64,000 nt of DNA from an uncultured delta proteobacterium (GTDB taxonomy: Bacteria; Myxococcota_A; Polyangia; Palsa-1104): assembly GCA_963785725.1 (NCBI GenBank), contig CAWAWS010000003.1, forward strand, positions 96,001 to 160,000, written 5' to 3'. Shown one piece after another: positions 27,655 through 33,523 of the stretch. A program made the position numbers and the translations under genes. Numbering within the stretch: the first letter of the stretch is position 1; every line of letters begins with the position of its first letter. Below the pieces are notes generated by a model, which saw nothing but the letters and a program-made list of their open reading frames with translations, searched no databases and was not told where the DNA came from.

Positions 27655-28821
27655 TCAGCCCTTTACGCACAAGAGCTGCTTGAGCTCGGCCACGATCTCG
27701 ACCAGATCGCGCTGATTGGCCATGACCTGATCGATCGCCTTATAGGCGCCGGGGATCTCGTCGATGACGCCGTGATCCTTGCGGCACTCCACTCCCGCCG
27801 TCTGCGCGCGCAGATCGTCGAGCGTGAACGTTCGCTTGGCCGCCGAGCGCGACATGCGGCGGCCGGCGCCGTGCGACGCCGACTCGAAGGACTCGGCGTT
27901 GCCCAGGCCGCGTACGATGTACGAACGCGTTCCCATCGAGCCGGGGATGATGCCGAGCTCGCCGCGTCCGGCGCGGATCGCGCCCTTGCGCGTCACCAGC
28001 AGCTCGGCGCCGAAGTGCTGCTCCTCGGCGACATAGTTGTGGTGGCACGAAATGGGCGGCGCGAACGCCACGTCGGACCGAACGAAGCGCGCGAGCACGG
28101 AGCGGTAGAGCTCGAGCATCACCTGCCGATTCGCCGCCGCGTAGCGCTGCGCCCAGAACAGATCGCGACGATACGCGGCCATTTCCGCCGTGCCGGCCAA
28201 AAATACGGCCAGGTCGCGATCGGGCAGCTCACGGTTATGCGCCAGCTGCTTGGCGCGATGGATATGCAGCTCCGCCAGCTCCTTGCCGATGTTGCGCGAA
28301 CCGGAATGCAACATCAGCCAGACGCGATCTTCGGTGTCGAGACAGAGCTCGATGAAGTGGTTGCCTCCGCCCAGCGTTCCCAGCTGCTTGCGCGCCTTGC
28401 CCTCCAGCGACTGCACGCGCTCGTCGAGCGCACCGAACTCGGCGAACAGGTCGTAGTGGCGGGCCAGCTTCACGTCGTCGTGCGCGTTGAAGCCGACGGG
28501 GATCAGCGCTTCGATCGCCGCGCGCAGATCGCCGAGCTGCTCGGGCAGATCGTGCGAGGTCAAGTTGGTGCGCTGCGCGGCCATGCCGCAGCCGATATCG
28601 ACGCCGACGGCCGCGGGCGCGATCGCGTCTTTCATCGCCACGACCGAGCCGACGGTGGCGCCCTTGCCGAGGTGCACGTCGGGCATCACCGCGACGTGCG
28701 AGAAGCACCACGGCAGCGACGCGATGTTCTTGAGCTGCGTCAACGCCGCCGACTCGACCTCTTCGAGCGGCGCCCACATCTTGATGGGTACGTTCTTTCC
28801 TTTGAGCTCCGAGATGGACAT
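27655..28821 (-). CDS. rtcB: RNA 3'-phosphate/5'-OH ligase RtcB
   Basis: MPDVHLG, VGVDIGCG, GGGNHFIE, HSGSR, HHNY, PGSMG, SHGAGR and AYK motifs. Confidence 0.97.
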   Translation of the reverse strand: MSISELKGKNVPIKMWAPLEEVESAALTQLKNIASLPWCFSHVAVMPDVHLGKGATVGSVVAMKDAIAPAAVGVDIGCGMAAQRTNLTSHDLPEQLGDLRAAIEALIPVGFNAHDDVKLARHYDLFAEFGALDERVQSLEGKARKQLGTLGGGNHFIELCLDTEDRVWLMLHSGSRNIGKELAELHIHRAKQLAHNRELPDRDLAVFLAGTAEMAAYRRDLFWAQRYAAANRQVMLELYRSVLARFVRSDVAFAPPISCHHNYVAEEQHFGAELLVTRKGAIRAGRGELGIIPGSMGTRSYIVRGLGNAESFESASHGAGRRMSRSAAKRTFTLDDLRAQTAGVECRKDHGVIDEIPGAYKAIDQVMANQRDLVEIVAELKQLLCVKG

Positions 28822-29229: not shown

Positions 29230-29270
29230 TCCGGCTCGCCGACAGCGAAACAAAACGCGGACGAGGAATC

Positions 29271-29337
29271 GGGCTGGGGTTGCGGGCTTCGAACCCGCGC
29301 CGGCGTTGGCCGGCTTCAACCGATGATAACCCAGCCC
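29271..29337 (-). ncRNA. Small structured RNA (GCTGGGTTATC family, copy 1) with a T-arm-like hairpin
   Basis: Terminal stem GGGCTGGG/CCCAGCCC; GCCGGC hairpin; GCGGG-TTCGAAG-CCCGC. Confidence 0.5.
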
Positions 29338-29349
29338 ATTCGGCCCGCG

Positions 29350-29423
29350 TGGAGCCACTCGTCGGAGTCGAACCGCCTTGCCCGTATACGAGACGGGTGC
29401 CTTCCCGGAAGGCAACGAGGGGC
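29350..29423 (-). tRNA. tRNA-Thr(CGT), irregular (6-bp D-stem, can fold 9/3)
   Basis: CCCGT-CTCGTAT-ACGGG anticodon arm; encoded CCA. Confidence 0.75.
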
Positions 29424-29495: not shown

Positions 29496-31145
29496 TTACG
29501 GACGTGGCCGCGTGCGCGCGAAGTCGGCCAAGATCGTCGGCGTGGCCGTATCGAAGCCGACCACGTCGAGCATCCCGGCATCCGTCGGATCGGCGATCGA
29601 GAAGCCGTTCGACACCATGCCCACGACCACCAGCTTGGCCGCGATTCCCAGGCGCTGCCGATACTGTCGCAGCGCCTGCGCCGGATGGATGCCGCCGGCC
29701 CACGTCTCCGAGTCGGTGTAGATGACGAACGTATCCACCTCGACGCGGCGCTCGATCGCCCACAACATCGGCTGCGCGCAGTCGGTGCCGCCGAAGGGCA
29801 GCCCGCTGACCCGCTCGACGGCGCGGTCGAGCCGCCAGTGCGGCGAGATGTCGAGCTCCGTCAGCGACGGTGCACCGCCACCATATTGCCCGCCGTACTG
29901 GCCGTTGCCGGCGCTCGTGAAGGCGACGAAGGCGTGCTGCTTCTCCGTCGCCGCCGTCACCAGCGCCATCGCCGCGCTCGCCACGCGCGGCGTCAGCCCG
30001 GGCACGCCCGCCACCGCGCCGCCGTCCATCGAGCCCGAGACGTCGAGCGCCAGCAGCGTCCGCATGCCCGATGGCTCGACATGCTTGAACGACGCATGGA
30101 ACGCGTCGCTCAGCGCGTCGACGATCGCGGCCCGCGGCGTCCACGTGTGCTGGCCGCGGACGCCGCGACCGGCGGCGTACGTCTTGAGCGCCGCCAGGAT
30201 CGCGATCGGATGGATGCGCGCCGCCGCCAGCCGCGCGCCGTCGCGCAGCCGGTCGGCCACGAGCCGCGTGGCGTCGCTGAGCACGCCCAGCAGCCCGACG
30301 CGGGTCATCGTCGCCAGGTTGCGGATCAGCGCCGCCAGCGGCATGTGCTCGAGCAGCGCCTCCCACACGCGCGCCTCGTCGAGCCACACCGTCGGGACGC
30401 ACTCGCGCGGCAGGTTGTGCTGCGTCACCAGCCGCACGATCTCGCGCACGTCGGTCGCGCGCTTGGCCTGCTCGAAGGCGTCGACGAGCGCCAGCGCCGG
30501 CGGCACCGGCTGCCGCAGCTCGCCGCGCACGATCCAATGATAGAGCTCGTCGTGCTCGGCCGACGGCGCCTTCGGGTGGGCGAGACGCAGCAGATCGCGC
30601 GTCGACCAGCCGTCGCGCGACTGATACTTCACCGCCTGGTACGCGACAGTACCAACGGGCTTGTCATTGAACCAGCGCTGCACCGCCGTCCGCGTAGCGC
30701 GGCCCCAACCACCGAACGCTTGTACGTATTCGGCGAAGTGCATGAGGTGCGTGCCCGTGCGGCAGACCTGGGGCAGCGCCGCCAGGGCCGCGCGGCGCGT
30801 CGCGAAGTCGCCGCGCTTGGCGGCCATCGCCAGCGCGAAGATCGCCGGATCGTTCTTGGGCGCCCGGCCGGCGTCGCTGACGGCGACGATCTGCGCGACG
30901 GTGCGCGCGCCGTCGCCGTCGATGCAGCGGGCGACCGCCTCGGCGTTCTCCCGCGTCAACGCCGGCTCCTTGGCGTAATAGCTGCCGCCCTCGGTGCCGA
31001 GAATCAGGAAGCGGTCGAGCCGCGTCCAGTCGTCGACGGCCCAGGCGAAGCCGCCGCCGGAGTTGGCGACCTGCGTCGAGCCCGGAATGGGCTGCGACTG
31101 CGGCGTCTGGTTGAGCGAGAACAGCTTTCCATAGTTGATACCCAC
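29496..31145 (-). CDS. rsr: Ro60 ortholog (TROVE + vWA domains)
   Basis: NSGGGF..RLDRFLILGTEGGSYY, KYQSRDGWS, LIRNL, DVSGSM MIDAS, GGTDC and DVVGFD motifs; AAGGAGGT RBS. Confidence 0.96.
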   Translation of the reverse strand: MGINYGKLFSLNQTPQSQPIPGSTQVANSGGGFAWAVDDWTRLDRFLILGTEGGSYYAKEPALTRENAEAVARCIDGDGARTVAQIVAVSDAGRAPKNDPAIFALAMAAKRGDFATRRAALAALPQVCRTGTHLMHFAEYVQAFGGWGRATRTAVQRWFNDKPVGTVAYQAVKYQSRDGWSTRDLLRLAHPKAPSAEHDELYHWIVRGELRQPVPPALALVDAFEQAKRATDVREIVRLVTQHNLPRECVPTVWLDEARVWEALLEHMPLAALIRNLATMTRVGLLGVLSDATRLVADRLRDGARLAAARIHPIAILAALKTYAAGRGVRGQHTWTPRAAIVDALSDAFHASFKHVEPSGMRTLLALDVSGSMDGGAVAGVPGLTPRVASAAMALVTAATEKQHAFVAFTSAGNGQYGGQYGGGAPSLTELDISPHWRLDRAVERVSGLPFGGTDCAQPMLWAIERRVEVDTFVIYTDSETWAGGIHPAQALRQYRQRLGIAAKLVVVGMVSNGFSIADPTDAGMLDVVGFDTATPTILADFARTRPRP

Positions 31146-31187: not shown

Positions 31188-31263
31188 TGGTACGGAGCCA
31201 GGGAATCGAACCCTGCGCAGCGAGTTTGTAGGACTCGTATCACCCCCAGGTGAGCTGCTCCGC
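31188..31263 (-). tRNA. tRNA-Val(TAC), C33
   Basis: CGAGT-CCTACAA-ACTCG anticodon arm; encoded CCA. Confidence 0.75.
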
Positions 31264-31284
31264 ATGAAATGCAATGCAATGACG

Positions 31285-31357
31285 TGCTCCCGGCAGGAGT
31301 CGAACCTGCAATGTCCGGTTTAGAAGACCGGCGCCCATTCCATTGGGCTTCGAGAGC
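31285..31357 (-). tRNA. tRNA-Arg(TCT)
   Basis: CCGGT-CTTCTAA-ACCGG; full cloverleaf. Confidence 0.9.
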
Positions 31358-31377
31358 GATTGGACGCAAACAAGCAG

Positions 31378-31450
31378 TGCTCCCGGCAGGAGTCGAACCT
31401 GCACTTCATCCTTCGCAGGGATGTGACCTATCCATTAGTGCGACGGGAGC
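31378..31450 (-). tRNA. tRNA-Arg(GCG)
   Basis: CATCC-CTGCGAA-GGATG; weak D-stem. Confidence 0.8.
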
Positions 31451-31464
31451 TTGAATACATCGAG

Positions 31465-31536
31465 TGTCCTCGCCAGGAATCGAACCTGGAATGTCGGCTT
31501 CGGAGACCGGCGTGAGATCCATTTCACTACGAGGAC
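31465..31536 (-). tRNA. tRNA-Arg(CCG)
   Basis: Loop CT-CCG-AA; GTCCTCG/CGAGGAC acceptor. Confidence 0.88.
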
Positions 31537-31556
31537 GACGCTGTCACTTCAGTGAG

Positions 31557-31749
31557 TAGTCGTGGCGGGATTCGAACCCGCACGGTCGAAGCAAGAGATC
31601 CTCTGAGGAAACGCGCTTCCCTGCCAAAGCGTTCCCGCCCGGGCCCGGTGCATCCGTAAACCTTGGATCTCGCCGCCGTCAGGCGTCTCCGACTGCTTTC
31701 GCTATCGGTTTCCGTTTTTCCGACGCGCTCCCTTTTGCGCTACACGACC
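31557..31749 (-). ncRNA. 193-nt tRNA-like RNA with a large domain replacing the anticodon loop
   Basis: Acceptor GGTCGTG/CACGACT, D-arm GCGC/GCGC, T-arm GCGGG-TTCGAAT-CCCGC; stem GTCGGA/TTCGAC encloses a multi-hairpin insert. Confidence 0.7.
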
Positions 31750-31760
31750 ATTCGAAACGG

Positions 31761-31833
31761 TGGAGTCGGAGGGAGTTGAACCCTCGTCTCTGCGATGCGA
31801 GCGCAGCGTGTTCCCGTTATTCACCACGACCCC
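31761..31833 (-). tRNA. tRNA-Ala(CGC)
   Basis: G3:U70 pair; CTGCG-CTCGCAT-CGCAG. Confidence 0.88.
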
Positions 31834-31918
31834 TTGCTACAGCGGCGAGACACGACGAGCAGTGTTGAAAGACCGAGCGCGTCCTGCATAGGTCGTCATT
31901 CGGCGTTTCATTCAGCTG

Positions 31919-31991
31919 CGCCCCAGCGAGGAGTCGAACCTCGTTCTCCGGTGCTTCAGACCAGCGCGTAGACCGCATACGCTACCGGGGC
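31919..31991 (-). tRNA. tRNA-Phe(GAA)
   Basis: CTGGT-CTGAAGC-ACCGG. Confidence 0.85.
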
Positions 31992-31992
31992 G

Positions 31993-32066
31993 TGGCGCCT
32001 GCGACGGGAGTTGAACCCGTAACACTCGATGGACAGTCGAGCCGCCGGCCGTTGGCGTTCGCAGGC
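31993..32066 (-). tRNA. tRNA-Asp(GTC), C37
   Basis: CTCGA-CTGTCCA-TCGAG; G73 and encoded CCA. Confidence 0.8.
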
Positions 32067-32087
32067 AAAACGAAAATGAAAATGGGG

Positions 32088-32185
32088 TGACCCAAAAATT
32101 GCACCTCCCACTCCGTAGCTCGCCGCGGAATGAACCGCGTCGGAGTGGTCCCTCGCTCGAGGTCGGCCCGGTGCCTCTGCCGTCA
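32088..32185 (-). ncRNA. Structured RNA, Y-RNA candidate
   Basis: TGAC/GTCA and GCACC/GGTGC closing helices, CCACTCCG/CGGAGTGG stem, T-loop-like CGCGG-TTCATT-CCGCG. Confidence 0.45.
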
Positions 32186-32187
32186 TT

Positions 32188-32262
32188 TGGTCAGCGTGGT
32201 CGGGATCGAACCGACGATCTCCTGCTCCCAAGGCAGGCGCGTTACCGCTTCGCTACACACTG
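32188..32262 (-). tRNA. tRNA-Pro(TGG)
   Basis: CCTGC-CTTGGGA-GCAGG; encoded CCA. Confidence 0.9.
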
Positions 32263-32264
32263 AT

Positions 32265-32500
32265 TGGCGTCCCGTGCGGGAATCGAACCCGCGTTCTCGG
32301 ATTGAAATCAGAAGGCCTGCCCATTAGTACCTCGCCACAGCAATTTCGACCGGTCTGCGCCGGTCCGCGACGCCCATGGCTTCGTTGCGACTCCTCAGAA
32401 TACAACCAGTATTCCTTCGTCCTCGCGCCTCGCCCTGGACGCCGCCTCCTCGGCGGATACCAATCAAAATCACTGTGGCGAGGTACCAGCCGAACGGGAC
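32265..32500 (-). pseudogene. tRNA-Glu (probably TTC) interrupted in the D-arm
   Basis: GTCCCGT/ACGGGAC acceptor, T-arm and GCCA end are intact; halves separated by a 160-bp insert; anticodon loop only 6 nt (TTTCAA). Confidence 0.7.
32327..32486. mobile_element. MITE-like element with terminal inverted repeats
   Basis: 14-bp perfect TIR GTACCTCGCCACAG (18/20 when extended); no transposase; TTAG/CCAG at the junctions. Confidence 0.65.
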
Positions 32501-32502
32501 AG

Positions 32503-32574
32503 TGACGCTGGAGAGAGTCGAACCCTTCATTCCCCGACTGAGCATCGGGTGGCCTTCCGTTAGCCGACAGCGCC
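32503..32574 (-). tRNA. tRNA-Glu(CTC), G33
   Basis: CCCGA-TGCTCAG-TCGGG. Confidence 0.75.
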
Positions 32575-32578
32575 GAAA

Positions 32579-32651
32579 TGGAGGTCCGCCGCGGAGTTGA
32601 ACCGCGCCACTGCCGATTTGCAGTCGGCATCACTCGCCGGAGCCGCGGACC
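32579..32651 (-). tRNA. tRNA-Cys(GCA), short D-arm
   Basis: GCCGA-CTGCAAA-TCGGC; U73 and encoded CCA. Confidence 0.82.
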
Positions 32652-32658
32652 CGAGCCG

Positions 32659-32734
32659 TGGCGTACCCCCAGGGAATCGAACCCTGCTTGACCCGCTTAA
32701 CAGGCGGGTGCCATCCCAGTCCGGCGCGGGGTAC
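32659..32734 (-). tRNA. tRNA-Asn(GTT)
   Basis: CCCGC-CTGTTAA-GCGGG; G73 and encoded CCA. Confidence 0.85.
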
Positions 32735-32770
32735 GAAGTATTAAGGAGACATAGATCGCGGAAGTGCGAG

Positions 32771-32841
32771 CTCGGGCGCGTGGAATCGAACCACGATGAC
32801 GAGATCCAAATGCTCGCGTCCTGCCATTGGACGACACCCGA
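32771..32841 (-). tRNA. tRNA-Gln(TTG)
   Basis: U1-A72 acceptor TCGGGTG/CGCCCGA; loop AT-TTG-GA. Confidence 0.8.
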
Positions 32842-32842
32842 A

Positions 32843-32917
32843 TGGAGCGCGGTGCGGGAGTCGAACCCGTCCTCGCTGACTTGGAAGGCCAGGGCCCAAC
32901 CGCTAGACCAACCGCGC
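32843..32917 (-). tRNA. tRNA-Gly(TCC)
   Basis: CTGGC-CTTCCAA-GTCAG; U73 and encoded CCA. Confidence 0.85.
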
Positions 32918-32926
32918 CGAAGATCG

Positions 32927-32998
32927 TGCCGCCGGCAGGAATCGAACCTGCACCCAGCCGGTTAAAAACCGGCTGCTCTGCCGCTGAGCTACGGCGGC
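32927..32998 (-). tRNA. tRNA-Lys(TTT)
   Basis: GCCGG-TTTTTAA-CCGGC; canonical D and T arms. Confidence 0.92.
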
Positions 32999-33009
32999 GT
33001 TGCCGCTTT

Positions 33010-33084
33010 TGGTGCGCGCCGTGGGAATCGAACCCACCTTCAACGGATTAAGAATCCGTCGCCTCACCAGTCGGCTTGGCGCGC
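33010..33084 (-). tRNA. tRNA-Lys(CTT)
   Basis: ACGGA-TTCTTAA-TCCGT; encoded CCA. Confidence 0.9.
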
Positions 33085-33139
33085 AATGGAGCTCTCTTCC
33101 GAAAGACGAGAGCTCTCTTCTCATGACGTCGCTATTCGA

Positions 33140-33173
33140 TTATCAAAGCGGACGAAACCAATCGGTTTCGCCC
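33140..33173 (-). promoter_or_regulatory. boxB-boxA-like antitermination signal
   Basis: Hairpin GGGCGAAACC-GATT-GGTTTCGTCC directly followed by GCTTTGATAA. Confidence 0.4.
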
Positions 33174-33180
33174 ATATTCG

Positions 33181-33265
33181 TGGGCCGCCTGGGAATCGAA
33201 CCCAGCGAGCTCCGCGGAGCGCCTGATTTACAATCAGGCCCGTCTCCATAACGGTCTAACGACCC
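33181..33265 (-). tRNA. tRNA-Tyr(GTA)
   Basis: CCTGA-TTGTAAA-TCAGG; long variable arm. Confidence 0.88.
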
Positions 33266-33273
33266 GGGCGCAG

Positions 33274-33345
33274 AGCGGCCGGCGGGAATCGAACCCGCCA
33301 CTCCGACTTGGCAAGCCGGCGTGTCTCCCACGACACCTCGACCGC
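33274..33345 (-). tRNA. tRNA-Gly(GCC)
   Basis: CCGGC-TTGCCAA-GTCGG; U73. Confidence 0.88.
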
Positions 33346-33374
33346 AGGACGCACGAATCCCCTGGCGCGCATTC

Positions 33375-33523
33375 GAGCGTTCGAGCCCAAATGCGCCTTT
33401 CGGGAGCGCTGGTCTGCCGATGAGCTACGCGGCCGTCAGATGCGGAGCACCGACGGACCGCACGCCGTGAGTCGATCGCGGAAACCCCAATGGTCTCCGA
33501 CGTCGACCTCGCCGTTCGCGCTC
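33375..33523 (-). ncRNA. YrlA-like Y RNA candidate (permuted tRNA module)
   Basis: T-like arm CCGCG-ATCGACT-CACGG, then loop-closed acceptor-like stem TGCGGTC/GGCCGCG, then D-like TAGCTCATCGGCAGA; ends pair GAGCG/CGCTC. Confidence 0.45.

What the first reader, a model, noticed from the sequence alone, without database searches (positions are those of the whole stretch)
31557..31749. 193-nt tRNA-like RNA with a large structured domain instead of an anticodon loop
Seen: canonical acceptor, D and T arms, but the anticodon-stem equivalent (GTCGGA/TTCGAC) encloses ~125 nt. That insert has a GC-GAAA-GC tetraloop hairpin, GCC-TGAC-GGC and a long GAGATCC/GGATCTC-closed arm. It is short for a group I intron and lacks the tmRNA G3:U70 pair. 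Inference: a ncRNA processed by tRNA-maturation enzymes, possibly a Ro60 partner, a nuclease decoy or a miniature relative of the tRNA-array-associated GOLLD RNA.
Basis: partly seen in the sequence, partly recalled or inferred. Interest (0 to 1): 0.8.

Follow-up and report, generated by a model that had tools for sequence, protein, structure and literature searches.

The report
Self-locked tRNA look-alike RNA family
This is a gene for a tRNA-shaped RNA that cannot read codons because its codon-reading loop is knotted onto a conserved extra domain; it belongs to a widespread, apparently undescribed family of phages and bacteria, some copies of which look switched on by the sensor of broken tRNAs, so it is probably part of the response to tRNA damage.

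Summary
Real, on the minus strand (31749→31557), inside a tRNA array ahead of Ro60, a Y-like RNA and RtcB. It founds a family absent from Rfam 15 and from my ten paper searches: 170 distinct sequences (114 below 90% identity), 148–279 nt, in phages (including cultured Streptomyces phages) and several bacterial phyla. The anticodon arm is kept as a hairpin with an enlarged loop; the insert sits in the variable-arm position; the loop (AAACG) pairs with the insert (CGUUU) in a pseudoknot (6 compensatory changes, 0.37 expected). A near-invariant core of about 25 nt occurs only inside the tRNA frame, while acceptor identity varies freely. Not tmRNA, intron, GOLLD or Y RNA; closest design is T4 RNA C. 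Stand-alone copies have their own promoters: σ54-type ones lie in genomes with RtcR (10 of 10, versus 4 of 16) and share a palindrome with rtcR-divergent promoters. This genome shows no RtcR. Best reading: a non-decoding tRNA mimic in the tRNA-damage response, probably a nuclease decoy; function and expression unproven. Earlier scan notes describe similar designs, but none this family.

The parts
31557..31749 (-). Whole tRNA-framed RNA gene, 193 nt (5' end at 31749, discriminator A at 31557; CCA not encoded)
   Evidence: (128.8 bits to model R2, which was built with it)
31743..31749 (-). Acceptor stem, 5' strand
   Evidence: pairs with 31558-31564; all 7 pairs change on both sides across 42 homologs
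31725..31740 (-). D arm (4-bp stem, 8-nt loop with GG)
   Evidence: sequence; GG in D loop in 59 of 60 homologs
31705..31723 (-). Anticodon-arm equivalent: 4-bp stem, 11-nt loop without U33
   Evidence: local hairpin in 53 of 60 homologs versus 26.7 shuffled
31713..31717 (-). Pseudoknot 5' strand (AAACG) in the anticodon-arm loop
   Evidence: pairs with 31609-31613; 6 compensatory cells in 112 sequences versus 0.37 expected
31695..31702 (-). Small GNRA hairpin (optional module; missing in the 148-155-nt members)
31687..31693 (-). Variable-region long stem, 5' strand (second GTCGGA copy)
   Evidence: pairs with 31585-31591 in the minimum-energy fold
31675..31684 (-). Side hairpin GCC-TGAC-GGC (optional module)
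   Evidence: length and sequence vary freely among homologs
31665..31671 (-). Inner variable-region stem, 5' strand
   Evidence: pairs with 31595-31601
31647..31662 (-). Conserved core, 5' segment (family consensus GGUUGC-RGAN-GCACC)
   Evidence: kept in 31 of 31 members found by a pattern that left it free
31620..31648 (-). Core arm closed by CC/GG, variable distal stem-loop
   Evidence: closing pair C-G 175, U-A 5, G-C 1 of 181
31607..31621 (-). Conserved core, 3' segment (GGGAAGCGCGUUUCC), includes pseudoknot 3' strand 31609-31613
31565..31581 (-). T arm with canonical T loop
31558..31564 (-). Acceptor stem, 3' strand
31188..33434 (-). Context: tRNA array holding the RNA (17 ARAGORN tRNAs plus irregular units)
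29496..31145 (-). Context: Ro60 (TROVE + vWA) gene
29251..29351 (-). Context: separate Y-RNA-like gene with a GNCGAAUG motif
   Evidence: Deinococcus_Y_RNA 40.2 bits, below the 80-bit gathering score; fold z = -5.97
27655..28821 (-). Context: RtcB RNA ligase gene

Best explanation
A stand-alone non-coding RNA gene of an undescribed family: a non-decoding tRNA mimic used in the response to tRNA damage. SHOWN by comparison: full tRNA frame; anticodon-arm loop paired to a conserved domain that sits on a long variable-region stem; free acceptor identity; occurrence in tRNA arrays, next to rtcB, or alone behind its own promoter. INFERRED: it is cut from precursors by RNase P and 3' trimming enzymes and gets CCA like a tRNA; it is not charged by one synthetase and cannot decode; the knot hides the loop that anticodon nucleases attack. 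INFERRED from promoters: one group of copies is switched on by RtcR, the sensor of broken tRNA halves. GUESSED: the RNA binds and slows tRNA-targeting proteins (anticodon nucleases most likely) through its tRNA elbow while the invariant core is the docking surface for a protein. About 0.95 that the family and fold are real, 0.65 that it acts in tRNA-damage or translation stress, 0.4 for the decoy mechanism as a whole.
For: 170 distinct sequences, 114 below 90% identity. Core always tRNA-framed: 140 of 153 loci by script, 3 more framed with a deviant T arm by eye, 10 cut by contig ends. Acceptor and T stems: 99.8% cells paired versus 75.7% shuffled. Pseudoknot: 6 compensatory cells versus mean 0.37, 0 of 20000 shuffles as high. 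Acceptor identity free: 3:70 is C-G 40, U-A 24, G-C 24, G-U 17, A-U 8 of 114; discriminator A 72, G 30, U 12; CCA encoded in 35. 31 of 36 copies without tRNA neighbours have a σ54-like or ECF-like motif just upstream, against under 1 expected; 0 of 17 array copies. RtcR in 10 of 10 σ54-type versus 4 of 16 ECF-type genomes. Palindrome TATC-N6-GATA (at most 1 mismatch) in 13 of 13 rtcR-divergent regions, 6 of 10 σ54-type RNA promoters, 0 of 21 ECF-type, 2% of 1305 background windows and in the E. coli rtcR-rtcB spacer. rtcB within 350 nt in 8 of 45 genome loci. RtcR is activated by cleaved tRNA halves, and a competitive-inhibitor role was proposed for the tRNA-like YrlA (PMC7790460, abstract and Discussion).
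Against: No experiment. The window's own genome (88% complete) shows no RtcR and no σ54 site or palindrome at the array head; overall RtcR was found in only 18 of 50 carrier genomes. The σ54 label needs only 2 changes on the RNA tree, so 10 of 10 is two or three events, and Fisher values overstate. Promoter motifs were spotted by eye in the same loci; in an independent metagenome set only 1 of 3 σ54-type copies had the palindrome (0 of 9 ECF-type, 3 of 78 others). RtcB is in only 2 of 30 carrier phage records. The pseudoknot also has uncompensated breaks (for example 5 at pair 3 and 14 at pair 5 of 112; L383, L402), and compensations may share ancestry. A pure decoy does not obviously need a 25-nt invariant core. 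Acceptor 5' ends were chosen by a script that rewarded pairing, which inflates acceptor statistics.
Confidence: 0.4

Rival explanations
1. The tRNA frame is only a processing and stability scaffold for a catalytic RNA: the pseudoknotted core is a ribozyme (for example self-cleaving, giving 2',3'-cyclic-phosphate and 5'-OH ends that RtcB joins and RtcR senses).
For: Compact near-invariant core with a pseudoknot and freely varying peripheral stems, the pattern typical of small ribozymes (own knowledge); neighbourhood of RtcB and apparent RtcR control.
Against: No match to any Rfam ribozyme; the core is never found without the tRNA frame; no cleavage evidence; one 169-nt contig from an RNA library runs unbroken through the core of a phage copy (DNA not excluded).
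Confidence: 0.12
2. A Ro60-associated RNA, working like a Y RNA (tether or gate for Ro60 and an effector nuclease), with the core arm as the Ro60 site.
For: Ro60 is 412 nt away here and in 14 of 30 carrier phage records, 8 of 16 near-complete ones; Ro60 in 6 of 9 σ54-type versus 0 of 17 ECF-type genomes; many members have CCGAAUG in the core arm, resembling the Y-RNA motif, more often where Ro60 is present (13 of 14 versus 9 of 16 phages; 9 of 13 versus 12 of 37 genomes).
Against: Ro60 not found in 37 of 50 carrier genomes nor in the two same-genus carriers; the window RNA lacks both GNCGAAN0-1G and the GAA while a separate Y-like RNA lies behind Ro60; the trend is not significant in near-complete phages (7 of 8 versus 4 of 8).
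Confidence: 0.15
3. A ribosome- or translation-factor-directed RNA (hibernation, rescue or stalling factor) in which the core docks on the ribosome or an elongation factor; or a sponge for a small signalling molecule.
For: Intact elbow features (GG in D loop 59 of 60, canonical T loop); core conserved across phyla and phages, as expected for a universal target; no dedicated partner gene among neighbours.
Against: No conserved aminoacylation identity; no reading frame room in 148-155-nt members; no direct evidence.
Confidence: 0.2
4. A tRNA gene interrupted by an intron or selfish insert that is spliced to an ordinary tRNA, or a decayed pseudogene.
For: Sits among tRNA genes beside RtcB; a MITE does interrupt another tRNA in this array; some in-silico excision gives an ARAGORN-callable product with U33 and purine 37 in 41 of 60 members.
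Against: Those products carry about 30 different anticodons with no shared junction; the loop starts with A's, not U33; no intron family matches; insert and anticodon loop covary; single copy in the genome; stand-alone copies keep dedicated promoters.
Confidence: 0.03

Closest known systems
Phage T4 RNA C (species 1 RNA, rnaC; AF158101 70908-71046)
   Same: Stable RNA of unknown role in a tRNA cluster (PMC3014915, PMC9697503, passages); ends in a T arm; folds into two long arms whose loops are complementary (UUGACG / CGUCAA), the same self-locking design.
   Different: No sequence homology: model R2 matches only its T loop, 13.7 bits, against 46-157 bits for members. It lacks the conserved core; the new family keeps a tRNA-like D arm and also lives in bacterial chromosomes under its own promoters.
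Phage T5 RNA1, RNA2 and other stable RNAs (AY543070)
   Same: Annotated as tRNA-like stable RNAs of unknown function within a tRNA cluster.
   Different: No match beyond T-loop fragments (at most 13.6 bits over them); no core motif.
Bacterial Y RNAs (YrlA RF02553; Deinococcus Y RNA RF01053)
   Same: tRNA mimics linked to Ro60, RtcB and the RtcR regulon (PMC4201824 passages; PMC7790460 Discussion).
   Different: YrlA has a closed acceptor-like stem-loop between T and D arms and a GNCGAAN0-1G Ro module; this RNA has normal arm order, free ends at the acceptor stem, a pseudoknotted core, and mostly occurs without Ro60.
tmRNA (RF00023)
   Same: tRNA-like ends enclosing a large pseudoknotted interior.
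   Different: No conserved G3:U70 (17 of 114), full D stem, too short for a tag frame; phage Comrade carries a separate tmRNA 2.7 kb away.
GOLLD (RF02032)
   Same: Conserved RNA of unknown function in tRNA islands of phages and bacteria (PMC12286853 passages).
   Different: Four to five times longer, not tRNA-framed; no model overlap.
Allo-tRNAs and irregular tRNAs (Mukai et al., PMC5389517)
   Same: tRNA frames with long variable arms in irregular tRNA polycistrons (passages).
   Different: Those keep an anticodon and are proposed decoders; the passages I saw describe nothing with a ~100-nt pseudoknotted variable region.

Membership tests
tRNA (RF00005) | Acceptor, D and T arms with conserved elbow bases | tested here: met
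tRNA (RF00005) | 5-bp anticodon stem with 7-nt loop, U33, free anticodon | tested here: not met
   loop of variable length starting with A's and paired in a pseudoknot
tRNA (RF00005) | Conserved aminoacylation identity | tested here: not met
   3:70 pair and discriminator vary freely in 114 members
tRNA with group I intron | Group I catalytic core (Rfam match) | tested here: not met
   no match at E up to 10 in the window or E up to 1 in 20 homolog loci
tRNA with group I intron | Excision restores one conserved tRNA | tested here: not met
   in-silico excisions give scattered anticodons, no shared junction
tmRNA (RF00023/RF04321) | G3:U70 alanine identity | tested here: not met
   17 of 114; window has U3:A70
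tmRNA (RF00023/RF04321) | Internal tag reading frame and model match | tested here: not met
   only end fragments scored, far below gathering; ARAGORN calls no tmRNA here
Bacterial Y RNA (YrlA / Yrn1) | GNCGAAN0-1G Ro60-binding module | tested here: not met
   absent in the window RNA; present anywhere in 25 of 114; a near-match CCGAAUG is common in the core arm
Bacterial Y RNA (YrlA / Yrn1) | Ro60 gene in the same genome | tested here: inconclusive
   present here; 14 of 30 phage records, 13 of 50 genomes, many incomplete
Bacterial Y RNA (YrlA / Yrn1) | Binds Ro60 | not testable with these tools
   needs pull-down
GOLLD (RF02032) | Conserved 3' domain matching the model | tested here: not met
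T4 RNA C / T5 tRNA-like stable RNAs | Sequence or model homology | tested here: not met
T4 RNA C / T5 tRNA-like stable RNAs | Non-decoding tRNA frame with anticodon-arm loop paired to the variable region | tested here: met
   both show it: works-like, not member
Known self-cleaving ribozymes in Rfam 15 | Match to a family model | tested here: not met
RtcR regulon | σ54 promoter with the enhancer shared by rtc promoters, and rtcR in the genome | tested here: inconclusive
   met by 6 of 10 σ54-type stand-alone copies, rtcR in 10 of 10; not met for the window copy; that the palindrome is the RtcR site is my inference

The most novel reading that the evidence does not exclude
A new class of functional RNA of the bacterial RNA-repair system: a tRNA-scaffolded domain with its own activity (catalysis such as self-cleavage to RtcB/RtcR-type ends, or tight binding of a nuclease, ribosome site or signal), carried by phages and repeatedly adopted by bacteria as a stand-alone gene under RtcR or ECF control.
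Probability: 0.3. Interest if true: 0.93.

Novelty: new variant of a known kind. Interest (0 to 1): 0.8.

Why it matters
Phage tRNA-like stable RNAs such as T4 RNA C have stayed unexplained for decades, and the output of the RtcR/RtcB/Ro60 tRNA-damage response is only partly known. This family gives a conserved, compact (down to 148 nt), structurally defined tRNA mimic with a regulatory clue, present in cultured Streptomyces phages and named bacterial isolates, so both questions become directly testable. It is also a natural version of a tRNA scaffold carrying a cargo domain, and a good cryo-EM and ribozyme-screen target.

Tried and rejected
Rfam scans of the window and 20 homolog loci: nothing at the element except tRNA or tmRNA end fragments. 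Dedicated partner protein: none; neighbours of stand-alone copies are unrelated genes. RNAalifold's alternative helix GGAUGC/GCGUUU inside the core: no compensatory change and broken in the sequences that compensate the pseudoknot; the inner fold of the core remains unresolved. Plasmids: no match with one query; a second phage query found nothing. Model search of 150 other genomes of the phylum: 0 matches, but only 16 candidates were scored per genome, so it is weak. Pattern search of 41 other genomes of the order: 4 matches, 2 true (G002, G004), 2 rejected by the model. Of the 94 genome-collection pattern loci, 53 distinct members were kept, 2 duplicated earlier loci, and the rest failed my filter for the upstream core and T arm and were not re-tested with the model. 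Expression: the one run search used a phage copy (L163), not the window; one soil RNA library gave a 169-nt contig covering the element almost exactly with no joint, depth 3.5, DNA not excluded; the other three runs covered it partly or not at all: no evidence of expression, ends or strand. Link between the CCGAAUG core-arm variant and Ro60: weak, not significant in near-complete phages. σ54 consensus scan of the window: chance level. ARAGORN found no tmRNA in this genome; it is 88% complete, so I draw nothing from that. Model R1 was not used.

Full report
1. Observation. The feature lies on the minus strand, 31749→31557. It has a 7-bp acceptor stem, a 4-bp D stem and a canonical T arm, and about 120 nt more than a tRNA between D and T arms. 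It sits between tRNA-Ala and tRNA-Arg in an array of 17 ARAGORN tRNAs (31188-33345) followed by Ro60, tRNA-Thr, a Y-like RNA, tRNA-Trp, tRNA-Leu and RtcB. Rfam 15 has no match at the element at gathering score or up to E 10 apart from a 15-bit T-arm fragment. It is single-copy in its genome.

2. Homologs. DNA search of 60 relatives found two same-genus genomes with the element, both in tRNA arrays. Together: 220 rows, 170 distinct sequences, 114 below 90% identity, 148-279 nt, median 217. Relaxed patterns added 21 matches above 66 bits among 78 further loci, some duplicates. Named carriers include Myxococcota, Alpha-, Beta- and Gammaproteobacteria, a planctomycete, a Deinococcus and a clostridial bin. 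Distribution is patchy. Of 153 later loci with the core, 140 were tRNA-framed by script, 3 by eye, and 10 were cut by contig ends. When the pattern left the 5' core free it was still kept in 31 of 31 members, so its conservation is not only ascertainment.

3. Structure. Acceptor and T stems covary strongly (99.8% of cells paired versus 75.7% shuffled); caution: 5' ends were picked by a script that rewarded pairing, though the AAACG strand, not used in that choice, ended 36-39 nt from the chosen start in 69 of 80. So the anticodon arm exists, with a long loop lacking U33, and the insert occupies the variable region. The loop's AAACG is complementary to CGUUU in the core; 6 both-side changes were seen in 112 sequences against 0.37 expected (0 of 20000 shuffles; 2 of 114 had no locatable loop). 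Uncompensated breaks also occur and relatedness is not corrected. The CC/GG pair closing the core arm is C-G 175, U-A 5, G-C 1; many members have GAA opposite GUA or GCUA next to it, which recalls a loop-E motif (name from my own knowledge). Side hairpins are optional: 148-155-nt members keep only frame, long stem and core. The core's inner fold is unresolved.

4. Identity. Pair 3:70 and the discriminator vary freely, and CCA is encoded in 35 of 114. This argues against charging by one synthetase, and for a frame kept for shape and processing. In-silico excision can make ARAGORN-callable products in many members, but with about 30 different anticodons and no shared junction, so I reject splicing to a tRNA.

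5. Context and control. Among 45 genome loci longer than 4 kb, 17 have three or more tRNAs and 28 at most one; rtcB lies within 350 nt in 8 and at 1.3 kb in 1. No partner gene recurs beside stand-alone copies. Of 36 copies without tRNA neighbours (8 of them with only 300 nt of flank), 31 have a σ54-like site (11) or GTCAG-N15-19-CGTC (21; one has both) just upstream, against under 1 expected; 0 of 17 array copies do. The second motif resembles the ECF41 promoter TGTCACA-n16-CGTC (PMC3426412, passages) but differs at -35; its factor is unknown. RtcR was found in 10 of 10 σ54-type genomes and 4 of the 16 ECF-type genomes searched. A palindrome TATC-N6-GATA with at most one mismatch occurs in 13 of 13 regions divergent from rtcR (14 fetched, one dropped at a contig end), 6 of 10 σ54-type RNA promoters (9 of 10 with two mismatches), 0 of 21 ECF-type and 2% of background windows, and in the E. 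coli rtcR-rtcB spacer. I infer it is the RtcR enhancer; the passages I read confirm such a site exists but do not give its sequence (PMC9650030, PMC9879122). Against: σ54-type copies need only two changes on the RNA tree, the motifs were seen post hoc, the independent metagenome set gave 1 of 3, and the window's genome shows no RtcR, σ54 site or palindrome at the array head. Ro60 is in 14 of 30 carrier phage records and 13 of 50 genomes, RtcB in 2 of 30 phage records; the two same-genus carriers have no Ro60 match.

6. Mechanism. RtcR responds to 5' tRNA fragments with cyclic phosphate, and its operon's tRNA-like YrlA was proposed as a competitive inhibitor of the anticodon nuclease (PMC7790460; abstract and Discussion). 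An RNA with a tRNA elbow, a locked anticodon loop, no charging identity, and links to RtcR, RtcB and Ro60 fits a decoy or modulator in this response (0.4). The invariant core is the weak point of that reading and keeps open a ribosome- or ligand-directed role (0.2), a Ro60 partner (0.15) and a ribozyme (0.12). None is shown. Expression evidence is negligible.

7. Known systems. It works like T4 RNA C in design (complementary loops; this comparison was sharpened by earlier scan notes) but is not homologous to it or to T5 stable RNAs. It fails membership of tRNA, intron-containing tRNA, tmRNA, Y RNA and GOLLD as listed in the table.

8. Novelty. Not found in Rfam 15 or in ten searches of the open library, including a search for the core sequence itself. 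Papers seen: passages of PMC12286853, PMC5389517, PMC10690425, PMC4201824, PMC9697503, PMC3426412, PMC9650030, PMC9879122, PMC3014915; abstract and Discussion of PMC7790460; others as search listings only. Of PMC10690425's supplements 6 files were searched without a hit and 3 could not be searched; a fragment of this family may be among its 10,006 candidates. Subscription journals are not covered. Earlier scan notes describe other non-decoding tRNA mimics and an array sharing short words with two homologs, but none names this family. Verdict: real, new family, new variant of the tRNA-mimic kind; interest 0.8.

Noticed in passing
window 32264-32504 (-): tRNA-Glu(UUC) interrupted in its D loop by a ~162-bp element with terminal inverted repeats; about a dozen related copies (74-88% identity) elsewhere in the genome, so an active-looking MITE; one copy lies just upstream of a second Ro60 gene.
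   Followed up: partly
window 29251-29351 (-): Y-RNA-like gene (Deinococcus type, 40.2 bits, below gathering) with GCCGAAUG motif, directly after tRNA-Thr, behind Ro60.
   Followed up: partly
window 33338-33434 (-): 97-nt unit at the head of the array with acceptor-like stem and D-like hairpin but a long hairpin and no canonical T loop; not called by ARAGORN.
   Followed up: no
window 31834-31917, 32067-32187, 33085-33179 (-): Spacers with degenerate tRNA-like or hairpin sequence, not called by ARAGORN or Rfam.
   Followed up: no
G000:C39:624755-626368: Second Ro60 gene, 72% identical to the window's.
   Followed up: no
L452-L465 and L466:3220-3260: Palindrome TATC-N6-GATA conserved in rtcR-divergent spacers from myxobacteria to E. 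coli; candidate RtcR enhancer, useful for finding other regulon members.
   Followed up: partly
upstream of L076, L079, L084, L086 and 17 more: Conserved ECF-type promoter GTCAG-N-CGTC in Myxococcota with unidentified sigma factor.
   Followed up: partly
L072, L077, L083, L097, L102, L108, L121, L128: Gammaproteobacterial tRNA arrays with rtcB (6 of these 8 loci), this RNA, an HNH gene and a Band 7 (SPFH) gene in conserved order; Band 7 also lies near the RNA in phage Comrade.
   Followed up: no
G234:C1:20081-20499 (L314): GOLLD-like RNA at 75 bits, below the 150-bit gathering score, in a carrier phage.
   Followed up: no
L005, L010, L016, L045, L011: Several YrlA-like hits below gathering score near the family members in phages.
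   Followed up: no
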